Shown here: piece after piece, positions 905 through 9,862 of the stretch | Position numbering within the stretch: the stretch's first letter is position 1 | Layout of the letters: every line of letters starts with the position of its first letter | DNA from: a virus | Taxonomy: Duplodnaviria > Heunggongvirae > Uroviricota > Caudoviricetes | Virus record (IMG/VR): IMGVR_UViG_2663763286_000016 | Location: 1-11,101 of that record | DNA: 11,101 nucleotides | Strand: one strand, 5' to 3' | Position numbers and translations under genes: made by a program | Notes under the pieces: generated by a model | Database searches by the model: none | What the model was told of the DNA's origin: nothing | What the model saw: only the letters and a program-made list of their open reading frames with translations

Positions 905-1462
905 TCAACAATGAATTTTTAGTAATTGCTCCACAGTCATATTTTTAATTGCGCTCCGGTTTACAAGAGTCCAGCCTTGTTTCTCCAGATAAAACTGGAA
1001 GGTATCCAGGGTGCAGACCATTGCGCCGTCCGGAACGGTTTCAGTGAATTTGATATTGCCGTGTTCGTCGAGACGGATAACCAGGGTACGTCCGTCCCCG
1101 TGAATCATTTTGTCGGGAGACGGGGCGTTATTCTGGCGCAGTTCTTTCTCCATGCGATCGAACTCAGCGATGTAGGCTTCTTTAAATGCAGCGGCTTTTT
1201 TGCTGGTGAAGCCCATCACCAGGAAAACGAAGCCGTTTTTGGTGATTTGGTACATTGGGAGTTTGCGACCGGTTGAGTCGGTATATTCGCTCGACACAAA
1301 ATTGTGCTCAGTGAATTTTGCTGAACAGTCCAGATTGCGAATTTTATCCAACACTCGTTCGTGGCGTTTACCAAAGAACTCAGCGATCGCAATAGACGTA
1401 GTGACAGCGCGTCCATTTTCGATGGTTACGTCAGGGTGAGAAAGGGTATGGATAGTAGCCAT
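905..1462 (-). CDS. Phage regulatory protein, Rha family (antirepressor-like), about 185 aa
   Basis: N-terminus MATIHTLSHPDVTIENGRAVTTSIAIAEFFGKRHERVLDKIRNLD...YQITKNGFVFLVMGFTSKKAAAFKEAYIAEFDRME matches the Rha-domain pattern as remembered. ATG at 1462..1460 with GAGG 8 nt upstream. The longer track ORF (to 1759) would read through an intrinsic terminator, so the shorter start is preferred. Confidence 0.8.
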   Translation of the reverse strand: MATIHTLSHPDVTIENGRAVTTSIAIAEFFGKRHERVLDKIRNLDCSAKFTEHNFVSSEYTDSTGRKLPMYQITKNGFVFLVMGFTSKKAAAFKEAYIAEFDRMEKELRQNNAPSPDKMIHGDGRTLVIRLDEHGNIKFTETVPDGAMVCTLDTFQFYLEKQGWTLVNRSAIKNMTVEQLLKIHC

Positions 1463-1491: not shown

Positions 1492-1531
1492 ACTCACCAC
1501 CAAGGCTTTCCACGACCATAAGGGTGGTGAG
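1492..1531. promoter_or_regulatory. 9-bp perfect inverted repeat (CTCACCACC ... GGTGGTGAG, 22-bp spacer) just upstream of the Rha start
   Basis: Read directly from the sequence at 1492-1500 and 1523-1531. Function as operator or RNA hairpin is unknown. Confidence 0.3.
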
Positions 1532-1630
1532 ACGTACAGGGGTGGAAATACCGGTGACTACCGAAACCGGCCAGCCTTTCGGCTGCCCTGCACGCCCCAC
1601 CATAATCTGAATGTGGCTGTGCATTACGCA

Positions 1631-1655
1631 TAAAAAAACCGCATGAGCGCGGTTA
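1631..1655 (-). terminator. Rho-independent terminator for leftward transcription
   Basis: On the minus strand: AACCGC-GCTCAT-GCGGTT hairpin (5-6 bp GC-rich stem) followed by a run of seven T (plus-strand A run 1632-1638). Lies between the pL-like operon and the Rha gene. Confidence 0.6.
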
Positions 1656-2297
1656 TGCGCAGTAGTCATCATCGGGTTTCCACGCCCGGCACCCGCTTTA
1701 TGAGGTGCAGGTGCACTATAATTCCACCCGTTCTGGTTTTCAATAGCTACATTCAACATTTTCTCTTACCCTTCATCACCGAAGTGAACTTTGTTGATGC
1801 AGTGCCTGGTGCCTCCAGGTGACGTTAACCAGTTAACAATTAACGCCGGATACAGAGAATCCACCCATAACACTGTTTTTGGTTTTAACTGTTCCGCGTG
1901 CGCTGAGCCGCATTCACCGCATCACAAAATTCACTTTAAAAAGGGCGGACATCAGTTCATGGGCAAACAGATGCCGCCAAACGTCACCAGAAAATTGATA
2001 ACAGAGGGCGTTGCAGCGGGGTTGTCACTTAAGCGTATGGTCAACCTGACAACCCGGTGTCCTCAACGGGGAAGGAATAACCCCGCCATACTTACCGCCG
2101 CGCCATTTCGCGGAGTGCCACAACCGGAAGCGCACGGTCGACGAAAATTTAACGACAGGCTATCTATGAACCAGCTACCTCGCCGTGCGCTTTCGCGTTA
2201 TGGTCTGACTTTTCAGGGAAATATCCTTTCAGTAAACTGTCAGTGCCGGATGCTTACCCGTGTCCGGCGCACGCACTCTACCTCACCCGTGAATAAA

Positions 2298-2684
2298 TTA
2301 ATGATTAATTGATATTTTATAGGTGGATTCAACTTTCCCATCGGATGTGTGATGCTTTAAATCACAGGAATTAATACTGCTTGCTGTAAAGTGATTTTCA
2401 AGGGGGGCTATTCGAATCCCTTTCTTTTTCATTAACAGGCCAAATCCCTTATTAATGATGTCCATTAATTCCAGAAAGTATTTTTCATGTAAATCCTGGT
2501 TATCAGAGAGCTGCTTCTCTTCGTATAGCCCGATAAAGGCTCGGCGCACGTTACCGGATATATTATCGATGGTTTCTTTTTCTACGGTACTCAGGTCAGG
2601 AGTAGCCAATTGAGAACGAACTATATTCGCTGCCATTTCCTGGAATGGTATTGGTAAATCTTTAAATTCCATCGTCAACCTCAT
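2298..2684 (-). CDS. Hypothetical early-left protein (about 124-128 aa), AT-rich gene
   Basis: ORF track 2298..2684. ATG at 2684..2682 overlaps the upstream stop (TGATG); an alternative ATG at 2672 has a GAGG Shine-Dalgarno (MEFKDLPIPFQEM...). No family recognised. Confidence 0.55.
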   Translation of the reverse strand: MRLTMEFKDLPIPFQEMAANIVRSQLATPDLSTVEKETIDNISGNVRRAFIGLYEEKQLSDNQDLHEKYFLELMDIINKGFGLLMKKKGIRIAPLENHFTASSINSCDLKHHTSDGKVESTYKISINH

Positions 2685-2913: not shown

Positions 2914-2942
2914 AATTTAGAATAACCTAACAAATGTGGCAA
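2914..2942 (-). promoter_or_regulatory. pL-like sigma70 promoter directing leftward transcription
   Basis: On the minus strand: TTGCCA (plus 2942..2937), 17-bp spacer, TAAATT (plus 2919..2914). One TTAG-N6-CTAA palindrome overlaps the -10 and spacer, a second lies just upstream of the -35. Confidence 0.5.
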
Positions 2943-2967
2943 GTATTTTTTGTTAGATTGGTCTAAC
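2917..2967. promoter_or_regulatory. Two putative operator palindromes of TTAG-N6-CTAA type (OL-like)
   Basis: TTAGAATAACCTAA at 2917-2930 and GTTAGATTGGTCTAAC at 2952-2967. The same motif recurs twice between the repressor and cro-like genes. Confidence 0.5.
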
Positions 2968-3004: not shown

Positions 3005-3412
3005 TTATTTTATTGATTTGTTTTTACGTGCTTTAAGCATTTCTTCGAAGAGTTTATTGAAATTCTCTACTCTTGCGCGCATTTCAGACAGTAAGGCTTC
3101 CTGCTCGGAGGAGGGAAGAGCATCGAATAATTCGATCAATTCTTTGTGGCTGGGAGTTAACTCGGTTTCCACATGAAGTTCTTGTGCTGGCACTGGTGCC
3201 TTGTCTTCGTCACCAAACATTAGCCATGTAGGCGAGCACTTCAGCGCATCAGCTAAAGCAAATAACCGCTTCCCGACCGGTTGGGTTTCGTCTCTTTCCC
3301 ATTGTGAAATTGTGACGTGAGCTACCCCAGCGAGGCGTGCAGCTTCTCGTTGTGTTAGGCGTAATTCTTTTCGTCGTGCCAGAACTCGCTGGCCTAGGGT
3401 TCTTGTATCCAT
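3005..3412 (-). CDS. Phage repressor, XRE-family helix-turn-helix, 135 aa, no S24 peptidase domain
   Basis: N-terminus LGQRVLARRKELRLTQREAARLAGVAHVTISQWERDETQP is a classic Cro/CI-type HTH. It is divergent from the cro-like gene. No Shine-Dalgarno before the ATG at 3412 and a TAGAAT -10 about 9 nt upstream suggest a near-leaderless transcript, as for lambda cI from pRM. Confidence 0.8.
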   Translation of the reverse strand: MDTRTLGQRVLARRKELRLTQREAARLAGVAHVTISQWERDETQPVGKRLFALADALKCSPTWLMFGDEDKAPVPAQELHVETELTPSHKELIELFDALPSSEQEALLSEMRARVENFNKLFEEMLKARKNKSIK

Positions 3413-3414
3413 AG

Positions 3415-3478
3415 TTAGGTAATTCTAATTTTTCTTGACTTAGGTATCCCGCGCACATTACCGTTAGGAATATCTAAC
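3415..3478. promoter_or_regulatory. OR-like region: two TTAG-N6-CTAA palindromes plus candidate divergent promoters
   Basis: TTAGGTAATTCTAA at 3415-3428 and GTTAGGAATATCTAAC at 3463-3478. Minus-strand TAGAAT -10 (plus 3427..3422) overlaps the first palindrome. Plus-strand TTGACT at 3435-3440 is a candidate -35; its -10 was not convincingly resolved. Confidence 0.45.
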
Positions 3479-3492
3479 AAGAGGGGGCTTTG

Positions 3493-3720
3493 ATGCTTAA
3501 AGTTGACGCAATTACTTTTTTTGGCAGCAAAACAAAACTTGCCAATGCCGCAGGAGTGAAACTGGCAAGTGTTGCTGCATGGGGGGAACTGGTTCCTGAA
3601 GGTCGCGCGATGCGCCTGCAAGAGGCATCCGGCGGGGAACTTCAGTACGACCCCAAAGTTTATGACGAATATCGTAAGGCAAAGCGGGCGGGGCGGTTGA
3701 ACAATGAAAATCACCCCTGA
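3493..3720 (+). CDS. Cro-like DNA-binding protein (YdaS-like), 75 aa
   Basis: ATG at 3493 with GAGGGGG 5 nt upstream (the track start at 3490 is TTG). Sequence LKVDAITFFGSKTKLANAAGVKLASVAAWGELVPEGRAMRLQEASGGEL fits the YdaS/Cro pattern as remembered. Position divergent from the repressor. Confidence 0.75.
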   Translation: MLKVDAITFFGSKTKLANAAGVKLASVAAWGELVPEGRAMRLQEASGGELQYDPKVYDEYRKAKRAGRLNNENHP

Positions 3721-5986: not shown

Positions 5987-7018
5987 ATGTCTATTAATCC
6001 TAAACTTAAGCGTATCGCGCGACGCTATCCAGCGTTATTCCAATATGAGTCCCCCTATATGGCAAGAAAATTAATAATATTCGGCAACGGTCTCGGTATG
6101 GCTTTAGATCCTGCTCACTTCTCCTTAGACAGAGCGTTGGAAGAAATTTGGCATCGCCCCAATTTTTTAAAAGATATCCACAAGCAACTTATCGAGCGTT
6201 GTCTTCAGCGGCAAGGTCCACCAGAAGGAGAACATGAGTTGGATACCCTTCACCAGGCTGTCACATATTGTAAAGCTCTTGCTCAAATTGGAGAGGGGAA
6301 CGTGCATTGGCTTACTGACGATGGACTAAACTTCCCCAAAATTACCGCCACTTATATTCACAAAGTTGCAACCAGGTTGCATAATTACGATAAAGGTTTG
6401 CCACAAAGATTCGAAAATGCGCTTGTGGAGTTTGTAAAGAACACACACTCACATATCGCGACATTAAACTATGACAAATTATTATACAATTCATTCATAG
6501 ATAATGATATATTCAACGGGTATGATGGGGTTTTAGTTGATGGGATGCTAAGCCACGGATTTTCCTCTGCAGCGCTCGAACGGAAATACAATCGTAGGTT
6601 TGGTTATTATTTGCACTTGCATGGTTCACCACTATTTATTAATCAGCATGAAAATGTTTTAAAACTTTCACGCTCACAACTTACTCTTGACATAGATGAA
6701 CCTAGTGAGCATATAGTGTTAACTCATATAAAAAGAAAACCGTCAGTTATAGCAGCATCTAATGTTCTTTCTACGTACTGGGATTATTTGCAGTTTGCAT
6801 TATTTGAATCAGAAGAAATAATATTGTTTGGTTACTCTGGTCTCGATATTCACCTTAACCTGCTTATTCGACCTTACCTAACCTCTAAGCCTTTAAGAGT
6901 AATTGAGTGGAGCGGTGCTGGTGAACAAAACGCTCGTGAGATATATTGGAAAAACCAGTTGAGACGGGAAGTTACTGTAATTAGGTTGGATAACATCACT
7001 GATTTTATTGATTGGTAG
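5987..7018 (+). CDS. SIR2-like protein (SIR2_2 / defence-type sirtuin fold), 343 aa; candidate NAD-consuming defence effector
   Basis: Glycine-rich N-terminal motif LIIFGNGLGMAL, TLNYD motif (residues 159-163), HLHGS (210-214) and a C-terminal LFGYSGLD motif, matching the spacing and residues of SIR2_2-family domains as in ThsA/DSR proteins (from memory). The gene looks markedly AT-rich. Start uncertain: 5987 or the in-frame ATG at 6059. Confidence 0.65.
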   Translation: MSINPKLKRIARRYPALFQYESPYMARKLIIFGNGLGMALDPAHFSLDRALEEIWHRPNFLKDIHKQLIERCLQRQGPPEGEHELDTLHQAVTYCKALAQIGEGNVHWLTDDGLNFPKITATYIHKVATRLHNYDKGLPQRFENALVEFVKNTHSHIATLNYDKLLYNSFIDNDIFNGYDGVLVDGMLSHGFSSAALERKYNRRFGYYLHLHGSPLFINQHENVLKLSRSQLTLDIDEPSEHIVLTHIKRKPSVIAASNVLSTYWDYLQFALFESEEIILFGYSGLDIHLNLLIRPYLTSKPLRVIEWSGAGEQNAREIYWKNQLRREVTVIRLDNITDFIDW

Positions 7019-7178: not shown

Positions 7179-7279
7179 TTTTATATTGGCGAGGTGACGG
7201 GAGTTAAGTAGAATTGCTGCGGGTGCTTGAGGCTATCTGCCTCAGGCATGAACACCAAAAGGCAGATAGAGAAAAGCCC

Positions 7280-7342
7280 CAGTTAACATTACGCGTCCTG
7301 CAAGACGCTTAACATTAATCTGAGGCCATATCTATGCGACAC
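7280..7342 (-). ncRNA. Putative Sok-like antisense RNA (hypothetical; extent approximate)
   Basis: Candidate minus-strand promoter: TTGACC (plus 7376..7371), 16-bp spacer, GCTAAT (plus 7354..7349). This would start an antisense transcript covering the start of the short leader ORF, as in hok/sok loci. No clear terminator was identified. Confidence 0.2.
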
Positions 7343-7393
7343 ATAGAGATTAGCCTCTTACGGACCAAAAGGTCAAGGAGAAGCAGGCTATGA
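7334..7393 (+). CDS. Short leader ORF (19 aa) coupled to hok; mok-like by position
   Basis: ATG at 7334 sits inside a hairpin (TCTATG cgaca CATAGA). The TGA at 7391-7393 overlaps the hok ATG at 7390-7392. Confidence 0.3.
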   Translation: MRHIEISLLRTKRSRRSRL

Positions 7394-7545
7394 AGCAGCA
7401 AAAGGCGATGTTAATCGCCCTGATCGTCATCTGTTTAACCGTCATAGTGACGGCACTGGTAACGAGGAAAGACCTCTGCGAGGTACGAATCCGAACCGGC
7501 CAGACGGAGGTCGCTGTCTTCACAGCTTACGAACCTGAGGAGTAA
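7390..7545 (+). CDS. hokD: Hok/Gef-family type I toxin, 51 aa (matches HokD/RelF as remembered)
   Basis: Hand translation MKQQKAMLIALIVICLTVIVTALVTRKDLCEVRIRTGQTEVAVFTAYEPEE. AAGGAG 9 nt upstream. Upstream leader is rich in long-range complementary segments. Confidence 0.88.
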   Translation: MKQQKAMLIALIVICLTVIVTALVTRKDLCEVRIRTGQTEVAVFTAYEPEE

Positions 7546-7614
7546 GAGACCCGGCGGGGGAGTAATCTCCCGCCACCTCTGATGTGCCAGGCATCCTCAA
7601 CGCACCCGCACTTA

Positions 7615-7635
7615 ACCCGCTTCGGCGGGTTTTTG
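7615..7635 (+). terminator. Rho-independent terminator after hok
   Basis: CCCGC-TTCG-GCGGG hairpin followed by TTTTT. The identical 20-mer recurs at 9449. Confidence 0.7.
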
Positions 7636-7645
7636 CATTGTCTGG

Positions 7646-7674
7646 TTGACAAAAATAGAAAAATGCGAAAATAT
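7646..7674 (+). promoter_or_regulatory. Candidate promoter for the 216-aa / HTH-ImmA module
   Basis: Perfect -35 TTGACA at 7646-7651; the -10 is imperfect (AAATAT at 17 bp or TATGTG at 20 bp). Sits immediately after the first terminator copy. Confidence 0.35.
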
Positions 7675-7709
7675 GTGGTTTACGAATTCTAAAAAAAGCG
7701 AAACTTGAA

Positions 7710-8360
7710 ATGAATGAAAATCAGTTAGCTCCTTGTTGGGAATTTCAACCTTATCTTGCTGAAAACTATGTTCGCCACTTGTTGGCGGAGATCGCTAACG
7801 TACTTGAGCAGCTGTACTATCATAAGCACGCATTAGACAGCAACTGGTCTGAAGGTGTAAGGGCTTATGATTGGGTCAGAAATCATCTTATTCAAAATGA
7901 AGATGCAATTCCTGGCCTTGAGATGATTTCCAAGGGGTTGGACTATGTAGTTGCTTTAAATAAAGTTCCGCTACAATTTACCAAAGATTGCATTAATAAC
8001 CCCAAAAAGAAACATCGTCTGCGTCGAAATAAAGTAGAGTATGAGCAGCTCTCATTGTTTGGTGATGTTGAGGCTGAGCAAGATATTACATGGCGAGTCA
8101 TAGCTGAGCCTTTTTTATCCGAAGAGGGCGATGGTGAATTAGAGTCCACACTGCCTCGTTGGGAGGTAGCTCTTGTTGGATTTAATACTTATGGTGCTCA
8201 GATTAGTATAGTTTCTCATCAATCTACAGCATCGATGCCGCTTATGCCTCTTGATTATAACACACTCCCTGACGAAGCGGAGATTAATAAGGTGCCTCTT
8301 CGTCGGCGTACGAAGGATAAAGATTTGGATGTGAGCAGTGATGGAACATCAGGTGAATAA
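7710..8360 (+). CDS. Hypothetical protein, 216 aa, first gene of a two-gene module; contains a QLSLF pentapeptide
   Basis: ORF track 7710..8360. No family recognised. Residues 113-117 are QLSLF, flanked by a basic run (NPKKKHRLRRNK) and an acidic run. The 3' end overlaps the start of the next gene. Confidence 0.65.
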   Translation: MNENQLAPCWEFQPYLAENYVRHLLAEIANVLEQLYYHKHALDSNWSEGVRAYDWVRNHLIQNEDAIPGLEMISKGLDYVVALNKVPLQFTKDCINNPKKKHRLRRNKVEYEQLSLFGDVEAEQDITWRVIAEPFLSEEGDGELESTLPRWEVALVGFNTYGAQISIVSHQSTASMPLMPLDYNTLPDEAEINKVPLRRRTKDKDLDVSSDGTSGE

Positions 8361-9444
8361 CTTCACTGAGTATCGGGGTGATAAGCTCAAACTAGCGAGA
8401 ATGGCTGTTGGGCTTTCTTGTGAAGAGTTAGCCGAAAAAATTGGCAAGACAAAGCAATTCGTTAGCAAACTGGAGAAGGGGTGCAGGCCATCGGAGCAAT
8501 GTCTTGAGTTAATATCTTCAGCGCTTATGATTAAGTCCAGTTTTCTTTTTACTGAACGAAAATACGCTCTGGAAAGTGATGTCTGCCATTTTCGGAGTAA
8601 GAAGTCCAGGACTCAAACGCTGACTAATAGTGTATTGGCCAGGGCTGAGATTCTTAATATTATAATTTCTGCTGTTGAAGGTGAAATCGAATTTCCTGAC
8701 GTTAACATACCGGAGCACCCAGGGGCTGAATTACTTACTCCGAATGATATTGAGCGAGTGGCAGAAGATTGTCGCCGTGCCTGGAATTTAGGTCTTGGCC
8801 CTATATCATCAATGGTTAAATTGGCGGAGAGTTTAGGGGTAATCGTTGCGCATGTTACGGGAGTCGATGATCGTGTTGATGCTTTTACTGTTCACAATAA
8901 CAGGCCTGTTATCATCAGGAACAATGTTAAAAAAAGCATATGTAGATTTCGCTCTGATTTAGGTCATGAATTAGGGCATTTAGTAATGCATGAGGGCATA
9001 ACGACAGGTGATAAACTTACGGAATCACAAGCCGATCACTTTTCGAGCGCCTTATTAGTTCCCAGGTTATCTTTCATTAAAGAATTTCCACGAATACGAG
9101 GTAAGCAATTCGACTGGAATGCTCTGGTTGAATTTAAACTTAGATGGAAAATCAGCCTTAAAATGTGTATTTATCGAGCCAGCGCATTAGGCTTATTGAC
9201 CCAGGAACAGGCAAGAACTGGCTATATGCATCTTAATTCCAGAGGGTATACGAGAGTTGAACCTGGTGATGAACTTTTGCGCCCTGAAGAACCCGGCATG
9301 CTGGCCGAGGCGATTGAAATGCTGGATGATGCAACCTGGCTAAGAATTCTTATGAAAACTGGCTTGAGCCAAGATTTAATTCGTGAGTTGTTCTCCATCA
9401 ACAGACCTATTACAAATCCAAGAAATATTTTCCAGATTGTTTGA
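8341..9444 (+). CDS. Fusion of XRE-family HTH and ImmA/IrrE-type zinc metallopeptidase (COG2856-like), about 367 aa
   Basis: N-terminal HTH (LKLARMAVGLSCEELAEKIGKTKQFVSKLEKG) and an HEXXH motif (HELGH, residues 210-214, around nt 8965-8979). ATG at 8341; the track start at 8338 is GTG. Confidence 0.8.
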   Translation: MEHQVNNFTEYRGDKLKLARMAVGLSCEELAEKIGKTKQFVSKLEKGCRPSEQCLELISSALMIKSSFLFTERKYALESDVCHFRSKKSRTQTLTNSVLARAEILNIIISAVEGEIEFPDVNIPEHPGAELLTPNDIERVAEDCRRAWNLGLGPISSMVKLAESLGVIVAHVTGVDDRVDAFTVHNNRPVIIRNNVKKSICRFRSDLGHELGHLVMHEGITTGDKLTESQADHFSSALLVPRLSFIKEFPRIRGKQFDWNALVEFKLRWKISLKMCIYRASALGLLTQEQARTGYMHLNSRGYTRVEPGDELLRPEEPGMLAEAIEMLDDATWLRILMKTGLSQDLIRELFSINRPITNPRNIFQIV

Positions 9445-9448
9445 GTAT

Positions 9449-9475
9449 ACCCGCTTCGGCGGGTTTTTTGTTTTT
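9449..9475 (+). terminator. Rho-independent terminator after the HTH-ImmA gene
   Basis: The same CCCGC-TTCG-GCGGG hairpin, followed by TTTTTTGTTTTT. Starts 5 nt after the stop codon. Confidence 0.7.
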
Positions 9476-9488
9476 ATTTTCAACGTGT

Positions 9489-9518
9489 TTGAAGTTTTGG
9501 ACGGTGCCAGAATAGAAT
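9489..9518 (+). promoter_or_regulatory. Candidate promoter for the downstream genes
   Basis: TTGAAG at 9489-9494, 18-bp spacer, TAGAAT at 9513-9518. Confidence 0.3.
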
Positions 9519-9553
9519 CAAAAATACTTAAGTAGCGCGCAGGGAGAAGAGGG

Positions 9554-9862
9554 ATGGACCCCGAACAGGGGGAGTGCTATTTATCTGGAAGGATTCTGTT
9601 GATGAAAATCGAAGAATTACGTGAAATTTTTAGTGAAGATGGCCTCTATACTGTGCGCGTTGAGAATGGCGCTATTGTCAGCCACTGCCGTATTAAATGT
9701 TTACAGTCTCTACATAGGAAGAGTGGAGCTGCGTTAATTTACTTTGTGGATGGACTTGTGACGGATGGTTTTATTTTGCGTGAAAATGAATTTGTCACAT
9801 CATTGCAGTCTCTGAAAGAAGCTGGGCTTAAGGCTGGTTTTTCTGCTTTTGAAGATGAGTGA
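9554..9862 (+). CDS. Hypothetical protein (102 aa; 86 aa if started at 9602)
   Basis: ORF track 9554..9862. AGGGAG 7 nt upstream of 9554; alternative ATG at 9602 with GGAAGGA upstream. No family recognised. Confidence 0.5.
   Translation: MDPEQGECYLSGRILLMKIEELREIFSEDGLYTVRVENGAIVSHCRIKCLQSLHRKSGAALIYFVDGLVTDGFILRENEFVTSLQSLKEAGLKAGFSAFEDE

What the first reader, a model, noticed from the sequence alone, without database searches (positions are those of the whole stretch)
3005..3412. Repressor lacks an S24 autocleavage domain, implying antirepressor- or protease-mediated induction
At 135 aa, with an N-terminal HTH and a helical C-terminal region, the repressor cannot self-cleave in the RecA-dependent way of lambda cI. 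The same window encodes a Rha-family regulator and an HTH-ImmA metallopeptidase; ImmA-type peptidases are known to cleave cognate repressors in ICEBs1 and some phages. Whether either acts on this repressor is open.
Basis: inference. Interest (0 to 1): 0.4.

Follow-up and report, generated by a model that had tools for sequence, protein, structure and literature searches.

The report
DicA-type non-cleavable prophage repressor

Summary
Window 3412..3005 (-) encodes a 135-aa repressor with an N-terminal HTH homologous to the P22 C2 DNA-binding domain. Its C-terminus is a 50-residue helical hairpin, not an S24 peptidase.

The protein is a homologue of E. coli DicA (57% identity). It belongs to the non-cleavable DicA/Gifsy repressor class, which is known to be inactivated by antirepressors.

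Window 9602..9862 encodes a homologue (72%) of Rem, the experimentally shown antirepressor of DicA. Rem travels with this repressor allele in 49 of 58 related loci. The Rha gene and the ImmA-like gene travel with it in none.

The HTH-ImmA protein is RmrA, the antitoxin of a RosmerTA defence cassette inserted between hokD and rem. It is very unlikely to act on the repressor.

IsrK and C4 regulatory RNAs and a 45-codon uORF precede it, as in the Gifsy-1 isrK-orf45-anrP module. Its C-terminal domain matches the AnrP family.

Verdict: a new member of a known kind, of modest interest. What induces rem is still unknown.

The parts
3005..3412 (-). Immunity repressor, 135 aa, DicA homologue: XRE/P22-C2-like HTH (aa 1-66), linker (67-86), conserved helical hairpin (87-134). 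No S24 domain.
3415..3477 (.). Right-hand operator region between repressor and cro (dicCp equivalent): exact TTAG-N6-CTAA palindromes at 3415-3428 and 3464-3477.
2914..2966 (-). Left-hand operator/promoter region (dicBp / PL equivalent): palindromes at 2917-2930 and 2953-2966 overlap a promoter-like site, TTGCCA-17-TAAATT (2942..2914, - strand).
3493..3720 (+). Cro analogue, DicC homologue (83% identity to K-12 DicC; Pfam P22_Cro).
9602..9862 (+). Rem homologue, 86 aa (72% identity to K-12 Rem, the shown antirepressor of DicA). This is the most likely antirepressor of the 135-aa repressor.
9489..9601 (+). rem promoter-like site (TTGAAG-18-TAGAAT, 9489-9518) and a leader of about 85 nt that is conserved across loci while the -35 region varies. 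An upstream ATG at 9554 is in frame with rem in this window. No LexA box.
1632..1708 (-). IsrK-like Hfq-binding sRNA with its own promoter (TTGAAA-17-TATAGT, 1743..1715) and terminator (1654..1637).
1520..1607 (-). C4-type antisense RNA (as in the P1/P7 immI region; STnc1160 position in Gifsy-1).
1494..1631 (-). 45-codon upstream ORF overlapping the C4 RNA, at the position of orf45 in the Gifsy-1 isrK-orf45-anrP module.
905..1462 (-). Rha-family protein, 185 aa from ATG 1462: pRha N-terminal domain plus a C-terminal domain that matches the AnrP antirepressor family. This is the second candidate antirepressor. The longer 284-aa ORF (to 1759) probably just reads through the RNA genes.
7710..8360 (+). 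RmrT, toxin of a RosmerTA defence system. Not part of the repressor circuit.
8341..9444 (+). RmrA, HTH + M78 zinc-peptidase (HELGH) antitoxin of RosmerTA. The cassette is bounded by a repeated terminator at 7614-7631 and 9449-9464.

Best explanation
The 135-aa protein is the immunity repressor of a Qin/mEp460-like lambdoid prophage and a member of the DicA/Gifsy class of short, non-cleavable XRE repressors. It binds the four TTAG-N6-CTAA operators that flank its gene, and so shuts off the leftward (ydfA...) and rightward (dicC-like cro, ydaT-like cII, replication) early promoters. Because it has no S24 peptidase domain, it is not inactivated by RecA-stimulated self-cleavage. The most likely route of induction is stoichiometric binding by the small protein Rem (9602..9862). 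Rem is made from its own promoter downstream of hokD, and it lifts the repressor off DNA without cutting it. Cro (the DicC homologue) then locks the switch. Shown here: the domain architecture, the homologies, the operators, and the genomic linkage of rem with this repressor family. Shown elsewhere for homologues: Rem derepresses DicA-controlled dicBp 165-fold, and Gifsy repressors stay intact during induction while their antirepressors bind them. Inferred: that this Rem acts on this repressor, that it does so by direct binding (possibly to the conserved C-terminal hairpin), and that the signal acts on rem expression. The Rha-family protein behind IsrK/C4 is probably a second, RNA-gated antirepressor that acts on this repressor or on the repressor of a co-resident prophage. 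The ImmA-like protein is the antitoxin of a RosmerTA defence cassette and plays no part.
For: Repressor: 57% identical to K-12 DicA over the full length (E=3e-55). Cro is 83% identical to DicC. Gene order is the same as in Qin: dicC<>dicA-ydfA on one side and hokD-rem-ydfU on the other. Only HTH domains are found. The model is all-helical and the N-terminal domain matches that of P22 C2. Operators: four exact palindromes, found only at the two regulatory regions. Rem: 72% identical to K-12 Rem (E=1e-41). K-12 Rem derepresses dicBp 165-fold (PMC10448788). DicA is named as a member of the Gifsy non-cleavable class (PMC3121763). Linkage: of 58 IMG/VR loci carrying this repressor allele with at least 8 kb on the cro side, 49 have rem and 0 have rmrA/rmrT. 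Of 57 with at least 3 kb on the left side, 0 have the Rha gene. Conversely, of 42 rem loci with at least 8 kb upstream, 38 have a DicA-like repressor at 51-100% identity and 2 more have one at about 30% identity. Allele shuffling: the window-type repressor is mostly found with K-12-type Rem, and K-12-type DicA mostly with window-type Rem. The C-terminal hairpin is the better conserved part (70% vs 48% against K-12 DicA; means 74% vs 67%). This fits a conserved contact surface and cross-reacting antirepressors, as described for the Gifsy phages. A public record with a 95%-identical repressor annotates its rem as 'prophage antirepressor', followed by irsA as in the Gifsy antirepressor operon.
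Against: No experiment exists for this allele pair. The repressor is only 57% identical to the DicA that was tested. Direct Rem-DicA binding has not been shown even in K-12; only genetic derepression has. The signal that induces rem is unknown. I found no LexA box or repressor operator upstream of rem, so the link to SOS that defines the Gifsy mechanism is missing. Rem is absent from 9 of 58 loci with this repressor. Rem shows no BLASTP similarity to the putative Gifsy antirepressor ORF STM2621.1n, which I assign to GftA by position. The IMG/VR loci are mostly closely related E. coli prophages, so the counts are not independent events. K-12 also shows Rem-independent derepression (spontaneous, urea, heat).
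Confidence: 0.6

Rival explanations
1. The Rha-family protein (1462..905) is the antirepressor, or an additional antirepressor, of this repressor. The IsrK/C4 RNAs and orf45 keep its translation off in the lysogen. When IsrK rises (in Salmonella: stationary phase, low Mg2+, oxidative stress), orf45 and then the Rha protein are translated and the repressor is neutralised.
For: isrK (63.6 bits, gathering score 50) and C4 (79.3 bits, gathering score 45) lie directly upstream, with a strong promoter and a terminator. An ORF of exactly 45 codons follows the isrK terminator. The same order, isrK-C4-antirepressor gene, is found in Gifsy-1. There, AnrP expression raises transcription of the antQ operon and induces the prophage (PMC4825925), and the Gifsy-1 repressor is of the same short class. 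The C-terminal domain (aa 100-172) matches the AnrP family phrog_2379 at positions 106-180 (E=6.8e-09; BLASTP to AnrP E=0.005). It also weakly matches the Rem family phrog_340 (E=2.2e-07). All 7 other loci with a Rha homologue have isrK+C4 directly upstream. In P1, c4 RNA represses antirepressor synthesis (PMC8546580).
Against: The gene is absent from all 57 related loci with the same repressor allele, so it is an accessory rather than the cognate partner. Its N-terminal domain (pRha) differs from that of AnrP (ORF6N). The target of AnrP was never identified biochemically. Profile-profile comparison of the Rha C-terminal domain with Rem is not significant (hhalign probability 1.8%) and BLASTP finds nothing. 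By analogy with Fels-1 FsoA, its target could be the repressor of another prophage.
Confidence: 0.3
2. The HTH-ImmA metallopeptidase cleaves the repressor, as ImmA cleaves ImmR in ICEBs1 and IrrE cleaves DdrO in Deinococcus.
For: The protein has an M78/IrrE domain with an HELGH motif. The repressor's architecture (XRE HTH plus a helical C-terminal domain) resembles that of DdrO and ImmR, which are substrates of such proteases.
Against: The protein is RmrA (E=6e-105) and is paired with RmrT (E=5e-25), which together form a RosmerTA defence toxin-antitoxin system. The pair sits 5 kb from the repressor in a self-contained cassette between two copies of one terminator. It is present in 0 of 58 loci with the same repressor. 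It also occurs in phage Tritos next to a different repressor (30% identity). Its own N-terminal HTH suggests that it regulates, or is gated by, its own cassette.
Confidence: 0.03
3. No dedicated antirepressor is needed. Derepression comes from intrinsic instability or dilution of the repressor and from a bistable repressor/Cro switch, modulated by temperature or chaotropes or by host proteases.
For: In K-12, about 1% of cells switch dicBp on spontaneously without Rem. Urea and high temperature induce it in a DicC-dependent, Rem-independent way. The window has a complete repressor/Cro/operator layout.
Against: This explains background switching in a cryptic prophage. It does not explain the retention of rem next to DicA-type repressors in functional phages such as mEp460, HannyBb and PhiR42_1, or the 165-fold effect of Rem. 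The two mechanisms are not exclusive.
Confidence: 0.15
4. The 135-aa ORF is a truncated remnant of a C2/CI-type repressor that lost its S24 domain by deletion or frameshift.
For: The N-terminal 71-80 residues are clearly homologous to P22 C2.
Against: Residues 87-130 form a conserved domain of their own, with 14 invariant positions across 32 sequences from many genera. Lengths in the family are almost all 133-151 aa. The stop codon is followed directly by operators and a promoter.
Confidence: 0.01

Closest known systems
DicA-DicC-Rem circuit of the Qin cryptic prophage of E. coli K-12 (Ragunathan et al. 2023, PMC10448788)
   Same: Same length (135 aa) and the same two-domain build. Identities are 57% (repressor), 83% (Cro) and 72% (Rem). 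Gene order is the same on both sides: repressor-ydfA, and hokD-rem-orf-ydfU. rem has no S24 link and no LexA box, and its leader is conserved between the two.
   Different: The N-terminal domain is only 48% identical, so operator specificity (immunity) probably differs. The left operon carries an isrK-C4-Rha module and a 128-aa ORF in place of ydfB/ydfC in the part seen. A RosmerTA cassette separates hokD from rem. A SIR2-like gene follows the replication genes. Here the leader's upstream ATG is in frame with rem.
Gifsy-1/-2/-3 repressors (GfoR, GtgR/GftR, GfhR) and their LexA-controlled antirepressors (Lemire et al. 2011, PMC3121763)
   Same: Short (about 136 aa), non-cleaved repressors that are inactivated by small trans-acting antirepressors encoded kilobases away, beyond the replication genes. 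Antirepressors cross-react between heteroimmune phages, which parallels the shuffled Rem/DicA alleles seen here.
   Different: Sequence identity to the LT2 Gifsy-1 repressor is only 25% (E=5e-05). Rem shows no BLASTP similarity to the putative Gifsy antirepressor ORF STM2621.1n, which I assign to GftA by position. There is no dinI gene and no LexA box upstream of rem, so SOS coupling is not evident.
isrK-orf45-anrP module of Gifsy-1 (Hershko-Shalev et al. 2016, PMC4825925) and the c4-icd-ant immI operon of P1/P7
   Same: The order is IsrK sRNA, then C4-type RNA overlapping a 45-codon ORF, then an antirepressor-like gene. The C-terminal domain is related to that of AnrP.
   Different: The N-terminal domain is pRha, not ORF6N. 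The module lies in the early-left region rather than next to the late antiterminator gene. There is no isrJ. Activity and target are untested.
ImmR/ImmA of ICEBs1 and DdrO/IrrE of Deinococcus (repressor cleavage by a COG2856/M78 protease)
   Same: An XRE repressor with a helical C-terminal domain, and an M78 peptidase encoded in the same element.
   Different: The peptidase is neither adjacent to nor co-transcribed with the repressor. It is fused to its own HTH and belongs to RosmerTA together with a toxin partner. It does not co-occur with this repressor elsewhere.
SinR/SinI of Bacillus subtilis and the phi106 repressor-AimX complex (arbitrium phages)
   Same: Fold search retrieves them as whole-architecture analogues: an XRE HTH plus a helical C-terminal oligomerisation domain, antagonised by a small protein that binds the repressor.
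   Different: Analogy of build and logic only, with no detectable sequence relationship beyond the HTH (20-23% identity, rmsd 8-10 A over the full length).

Membership tests
DicA/Gifsy-type non-cleavable short XRE prophage repressors | About 130-150 aa, with an N-terminal XRE/CI-type HTH | tested here: met
   135 aa; HTH_3 at aa 12-64; P22 C2 N-terminal domain E=1.2e-18, TM 0.97
DicA/Gifsy-type non-cleavable short XRE prophage repressors | No S24 peptidase domain and no linker Ala-Gly / Ser-Lys dyad | tested here: met
   No S24 hit. The C-terminus is all-helical in the AF2 model. The only Ala-Gly lies inside the HTH (sequence).
DicA/Gifsy-type non-cleavable short XRE prophage repressors | Full-length homology to DicA, including the C-terminal ELxxLFxxLPxSEQ...R..V..F..L..E.L region | tested here: met
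   57% identity over 132 aa. 14 invariant C-terminal positions in 32 sequences. C-terminal domain 70% identical to K-12 DicA.
DicA/Gifsy-type non-cleavable short XRE prophage repressors | Sits in an immunity region: divergent cro, with operators on both sides | tested here: met
   DicC homologue at 3493..3720. Four exact TTAG-N6-CTAA sites, found only at 2917/2953 and 3415/3464.
DicA/Gifsy-type non-cleavable short XRE prophage repressors | Remains intact during induction and is inactivated by antirepressor binding | not testable with these tools
   Shown for the Gifsy repressors and genetically for DicA-Rem. Not tested for this allele.
LexA/CI/C2 self-cleaving repressors (Peptidase S24) | C-terminal S24 beta-fold with a Ser/Lys dyad and a cleavable linker | tested here: not met
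   homology to C2 stops at residue 71-80, and the rest is a 50-residue helical hairpin.
Rem antirepressor family (phrog_340; PF27490 in the protein database) | Sequence homology to K-12 Rem over the full length | tested here: met
   72% identity, E=1e-41; phrog_340 E=7.9e-22; all close homologues carry PF27490.
Rem antirepressor family (phrog_340; PF27490 in the protein database) | Conserved position (hokD - rem - small ORF - ydfU) and linkage to a DicA-type repressor | tested here: met
   rem in 49/58 loci with this repressor; a DicA-like repressor upstream of rem in 40/42 loci. In the window a RosmerTA cassette is inserted between hokD and rem.
Rem antirepressor family (phrog_340; PF27490 in the protein database) | Derepresses the DicA-controlled promoter | not testable with these tools
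   Shown only for K-12 Rem.
Gifsy-type LexA-controlled antirepressor operon (dinI-antirepressor-irsA) | LexA box and dinI homologue upstream of the antirepressor gene | tested here: not met
   No CTGT-N8-ACAG near rem. The single exact core (8888) lies inside rmrA, beyond a terminator. There is no dinI in the window.
ImmR/ImmA-type repressor-protease pair | Protease gene adjacent to and co-transcribed with the repressor gene it cleaves | tested here: not met
   About 4.9 kb apart, on opposite strands, in a separate terminator-bounded cassette.
ImmR/ImmA-type repressor-protease pair | Co-inheritance of protease and repressor | tested here: not met
   0/58 loci with the same repressor have rmrA. 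Phage Tritos has rmrTA with a different repressor.
RosmerTA defence system | RmrA (HTH + Zn-peptidase antitoxin) next to an RmrT toxin | tested here: met
   PADLOC RmrA E=6.2e-105 and RmrT E=4.6e-25, with overlapping genes at 7710..8360 and 8341..9444. HELGH motif present.
IsrK/C4-gated antirepressor module (Gifsy-1 isrK-orf45-anrP; P1 immI) | isrK and C4 RNA genes directly upstream of the antirepressor gene, on the same strand | tested here: met
   Rfam isrK 63.6 bits (gathering 50) and C4 79.3 bits (gathering 45). Same order in Gifsy-1 and in 7/7 other Rha loci.
IsrK/C4-gated antirepressor module (Gifsy-1 isrK-orf45-anrP; P1 immI) | Short coupling ORF (orf45) between isrK and the antirepressor gene | tested here: met
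   A 45-aa ORF at 1631..1494 starts right after the isrK terminator.
IsrK/C4-gated antirepressor module (Gifsy-1 isrK-orf45-anrP; P1 immI) | Downstream protein homologous to AnrP | tested here: inconclusive
   Only the C-terminal domain matches (phrog_2379 E=6.8e-09; BLASTP E=0.005). The N-terminal domain is pRha, not ORF6N.

The most novel reading that the evidence does not exclude
One non-cleavable repressor is the target of two separately wired antirepressors in the same prophage. The first is Rem, behind a conserved leader/uORF that senses an unknown, non-SOS signal. The second is a Rha-family protein gated by IsrK/C4 RNAs. On this reading, the C-terminal domain of the Rha/AnrP-type proteins and the free-standing Rem protein are homologous repressor-binding modules. 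This would link the 'small' and 'large' enterobacterial antirepressors and explain the cross-talk between prophages.
Probability: 0.2. Interest if true: 0.55.

Novelty: new member of a known kind. Interest (0 to 1): 0.3.

Why it matters
Repressors of this class sit in prophages of most E. coli genomes. The immunity region of this window matches 4,066 of 5,426 complete genomes, including Stx-phage-bearing pathogens. Their induction route decides when toxic or defence genes and phage particles are produced. The class and its logic are already described, so this window adds another allele rather than a principle. It does offer a compact natural test bed. One repressor, the Rem antirepressor, an RNA-gated Rha/AnrP-like candidate and an unrelated ImmA-like protease all lie within 11 kb. 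The three ideas can therefore be separated with a few co-expression experiments. The conserved rem leader also gives a handle on the open question of what signal turns Rem on.

Tried and rejected
1. A direct Rem vs Rha C-terminal domain relationship could not be shown. BLASTP finds nothing. hhalign of two shallow alignments gives probability 1.8%. Only the shared weak hit to phrog_340 remains, so I treat this as unproven.

2. Structure route to the same question. The Rem AF2 model (pLDDT 77, alpha-beta4-alpha) has no significant match in BFVD (best E=0.048). The afdb50 library was unavailable.

4. LexA control. One exact CTGT-N8-ACAG core exists (8888-8903), but it lies inside rmrA, about 700 nt and one terminator upstream of rem. 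That is about what chance gives, so I rejected it as a regulator of rem.

5. Repressor operators near rem or isrK: none found.

6. Similarity of Rem to the putative Gifsy antirepressor ORF STM2621.1n (assigned to GftA by position): none by BLASTP, and the two fall in different PHROGs. The published link came from iterated PSI-BLAST, which I could not reproduce here.

7. A deep single-sequence search with Rem in 1.8 billion representatives found only 41 relatives, nearly all close and short. The family is narrow at the sequence level.

8. The third homologue search, with the Rha C-terminal domain, returned only fragments.

9. The rem leader structure has little covariation: 2 pairs changed on both sides, covariation term -0.64 kcal/mol. 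I make no structural claim from it.

10. The Pfam 'Ash' hit in the long 284-aa ORF coincides with the isrK/C4 RNA genes. I therefore do not count an Ash domain as part of the protein.
Full report
**Observation.** The ORF at 3005..3412 (- strand) encodes exactly 135 aa. Pfam reports only helix-turn-helix families (HTH_3, aa 12-64, E=1.2e-14) and no Peptidase_S24. Residues 1-71 are homologous to the DNA-binding domain of the P22 C2 repressor (PDB 1adr, E=1.2e-18). The AlphaFold2 model superposes on it with TM 0.97 and rmsd 0.7 A. In tblastn, P22 c2 and other LexA-family repressors align only to residues 1-80. After a low-confidence linker (67-86), the model has two helices (87-98, 101-134) at pLDDT about 93 and no beta strand. 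An S24 fold is therefore excluded.

The short length is native. The listed homologues from Escherichia, Citrobacter, Enterobacter, Klebsiella, Cronobacter, Serratia, Pantoea and Erwinia are almost all 133-151 aa and carry HTH domains only.

[quoted passage not shown] The divergent neighbour at 3493..3720 is 83% identical to DicC, the Cro analogue. The following genes are YdaT-like (the cII position), O-like and DUF977. The gene downstream of the repressor is ydfA-like (DUF1391).

Four exact TTAG-N6-CTAA palindromes occur in the window. All four lie in the two regulatory regions that flank the repressor gene, at 2917 and 2953 and at 3415 and 3464. The left pair overlaps a promoter-like site on the - strand. 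This is a complete immunity region of a Qin/CP-933P/mEp460-type lambdoid prophage. Similar DNA is found in 4,066 of 5,426 complete E. coli genomes and in functional phages such as mEp460_ev081, HannyBb and PhiR42_1. An Escherichia albertii contig carries a 100% identical repressor together with the same SIR2 and 128-aa genes.

**What is already known about the class.** Lemire et al. (2011) showed three things about the 136-aa Gifsy repressors. They are not cleaved during mitomycin C induction. Induction needs LexA cleavage. The effectors are small antirepressors (GfoA, GfhA, GftA), encoded beyond the replication genes in a LexA-controlled dinI-antirepressor-irsA operon, and they bind the repressors. 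The same paper named DicA and RacR as members of the class and noted cross-talk between heteroimmune prophages.

Ragunathan et al. (2023) then showed that Rem, encoded 3.6 kb from the dicBF operon in Qin, derepresses the DicA-controlled promoter 165-fold. They also noted that the signal inducing rem is unknown, and that the functional phage mEp460_ev081 carries both dicA and rem.

**The missed partner.** Window 9602..9862 encodes an 86-aa protein that is 72% identical to K-12 Rem (E=1e-41). It hits phrog_340 (E=7.9e-22), and all its close homologues carry PF27490. It sits where rem sits in Qin, between hokD/sok (7221..7545) and the small ORF plus ydfU-like gene.

I fetched IMG/VR loci anchored on the repressor or on Rem.
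- Among 58 loci with this repressor allele (at least 95% identity) and at least 8 kb on the cro side, 49 carry rem, 0 carry rmrA or rmrT, and 1 carries the SIR2 gene.
- Among 57 such loci with at least 3 kb on the other side, 0 carry the Rha gene.
- Among 42 rem loci with at least 8 kb upstream, 38 have a DicA-like repressor at 51-100% identity, 2 have one at about 30% identity that still matches the C-terminal region, and 2 have none.

These loci are mostly related E. coli prophages, so the counts describe linkage and are not independent events.

Alleles are shuffled. The window-type repressor is mostly paired with K-12-type Rem, and K-12-type DicA is mostly paired with window-type Rem. The C-terminal hairpin is the better conserved part of the repressor: 70% vs 48% identity to K-12 DicA, and means of 74% vs 67% across the alignment. 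I infer that Rem recognises a conserved surface and cross-reacts among immunity types, as the Gifsy antirepressors do. Binding itself is not shown.

**How rem is wired.** A terminator precedes rem (9449-9464), followed by a promoter-like site, TTGAAG-18-TAGAAT. In an alignment of 44 distinct upstream sequences, the -35 region varies among at least four unrelated forms. The -10 hexamer and the following leader of about 85 nt are nearly invariant. The leader holds an ATG behind a GGAG/AAGAGG stretch:
- In most loci it opens a 15-codon uORF whose stop overlaps the rem start (TGATG).
- In K-12 it opens a 3-codon uORF.
- In this window one extra G puts it in frame with rem, giving the 102-aa ORF at 9554..9862.

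A consensus fold exists, but covariation is weak. There is no LexA box near rem, so the SOS link of the Gifsy systems is not evident. This agrees with the published statement that the signal is unknown.

**The ImmA-like protein.** PADLOC identifies 8341..9444 as RmrA (E=6.2e-105) and the overlapping upstream gene 7710..8360 as RmrT (E=4.6e-25). Together they form RosmerTA, a toxin-antitoxin phage-defence system whose antitoxin is an HTH + Zn-peptidase protein. The pair is bracketed by two copies of the terminator ACCCGCTTCGGCGGGT (7614-7631, 9449-9464). In Qin that terminator occurs once, between hokD and rem, so the pair is an inserted accessory gene cassette (a moron). It is absent from all 58 loci with the same repressor. 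In phage Tritos it sits next to a different repressor and without rem.

The architecture of the repressor does resemble DdrO and ImmR, which are substrates of such proteases, so cleavage cannot be excluded on structure alone. Context argues strongly against it.

**The Rha gene.** Rfam finds an IsrK sRNA (1708..1632, 63.6 bits) and a C4 antisense RNA (1607..1520, 79.3 bits) on the - strand. IsrK has a 10/12 promoter (TTGAAA-17-TATAGT) and its own terminator. An ORF of exactly 45 codons (1631..1494) follows the terminator. These RNAs lie inside the part of the 284-aa ORF that Pfam calls 'Ash'. The Rha protein proper most likely starts at ATG 1462 behind a GAGG (185 aa).

The same order, isrK then C4 then an antirepressor-like gene, is present in Gifsy-1. 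There, Hershko-Shalev et al. (2016) showed that IsrK in trans unlocks translation of orf45 and, by coupling, of AnrP. They also showed that AnrP raises antQ-operon transcription and induces the prophage. In P1, c4 RNA represses synthesis of the Ant antirepressor.

The window's protein shares only its C-terminal domain with AnrP (phrog_2379 positions 106-180, E=6.8e-09; BLASTP E=0.005). Its N-terminal domain is pRha, not ORF6N. All seven other fetched loci with a Rha homologue have isrK and C4 directly upstream.

The Rha gene is therefore a credible RNA-gated antirepressor module. Because it is not linked to this repressor allele elsewhere, it may equally target the repressor of a co-resident prophage, as Fels-1 FsoA targets the Gifsy-2 repressor. 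The same C-terminal domain also gives a weak hit to the Rem family phrog_340 (E=2.2e-07). I could not confirm a relationship by BLASTP, hhalign or fold search.

**Mechanism, with status of each step.**
- Shown here: domain build, operators, homologies, gene linkage.
- Shown for homologues: no cleavage, antirepressor binding, derepression by Rem, AnrP-driven induction.
- Inferred: this Rem neutralises this repressor by binding, perhaps at the conserved hairpin; Cro then fixes the lytic state; the Rha module is a second input; RmrA is irrelevant to the switch.

**Verdict.** The feature is a new member of a well-described kind. Three points have some value:
- Rem, an IsrK/C4-gated Rha/AnrP-like gene and a RosmerTA cassette coexist around one DicA-type repressor.
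- The rem leader/uORF is conserved, which bears on the open question of what induces Rem.
- The Rha C-terminal domain gives a possible, unproven link between Rem and AnrP.

Noticed in passing
window 9519-9604: The rem leader of about 85 nt is nearly invariant across 44 distinct upstream sequences, while the -35 region is replaced by at least four unrelated sequences. It contains an ATG (9554) behind an SD-like stretch. In most loci this opens a 15-codon uORF that ends in TGATG, overlapping the rem start. In K-12 it opens a 3-codon uORF. In this window an extra G fuses it in frame to rem (102-aa ORF). This could be a translational control element for the antirepressor, whose inducing signal is unknown.
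   Followed up: partly
window 7614-9464: A RosmerTA defence cassette (rmrT 7710-8360, rmrA 8341-9444) is inserted between hokD and rem. It is flanked by two copies of the terminator ACCCGCTTCGGCGGGT, so it looks like an inserted accessory gene cassette (a moron) that duplicated or recombined at the hokD terminator. The same cassette occurs in E. coli O55:H7-type prophages and in phage Tritos.
   Followed up: partly
window 5987-7018: A 343-aa SIR2-like protein (Pfam SIR2_2 E=1e-05; weak PADLOC hits to Aga_SIR2, PDC-S21 and SIR2) lies just after the replication/DUF977 genes. It is a probable single-gene defence candidate. It is present in only 1 of 58 related loci with enough flank and is 100% identical in an E. 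albertii contig.
   Followed up: no
window 1520-1759: The Pfam 'Ash protein family' (PF10554) match in the long 284-aa ORF coincides with the isrK and C4 RNA genes. PHROG phrog_995 also models the long form. Many database 'Ash/Rha' proteins may be over-extended ORFs that read through these RNA genes.
   Followed up: partly
window 7221-7545: A complete hok/sok type I toxin-antitoxin locus is present: sok RNA at 107.5 bits, and a HokD-like 51-aa ORF at 7390-7545 that is 100% identical to K-12 HokD.
   Followed up: no
window 8888-8903: The only exact LexA-box core in the window (CTGTTCACAATAACAG) lies inside the rmrA coding sequence. It is probably chance (six hits at up to one mismatch, against 3.35 +/- 1.93 in shuffles).
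   Followed up: partly
L107 (2739-2927, 5242-5443, 9423-9524) and L007 (4335-4535, 15732-15915): Some related prophage loci carry two or three separate isrK/C4 modules, which suggests several RNA-gated antirepressor-like genes per prophage.
   Followed up: no
P0058, P0062 (protein database): Some 127-aa proteins combine a DicC/P22_Cro N-terminus with a Rem C-terminus (PF14549 + PF27490). They look like deletion fusions of cro to rem in degraded prophages.
   Followed up: no
window 2298-2684: A 128-aa ORF of unknown function (phrog_6937) follows the ydfA-like gene, at the position where the ydfB and ydfC genes lie in Qin-type prophages. It occurs with this repressor allele in only 2 of 57 related loci.
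   Followed up: no
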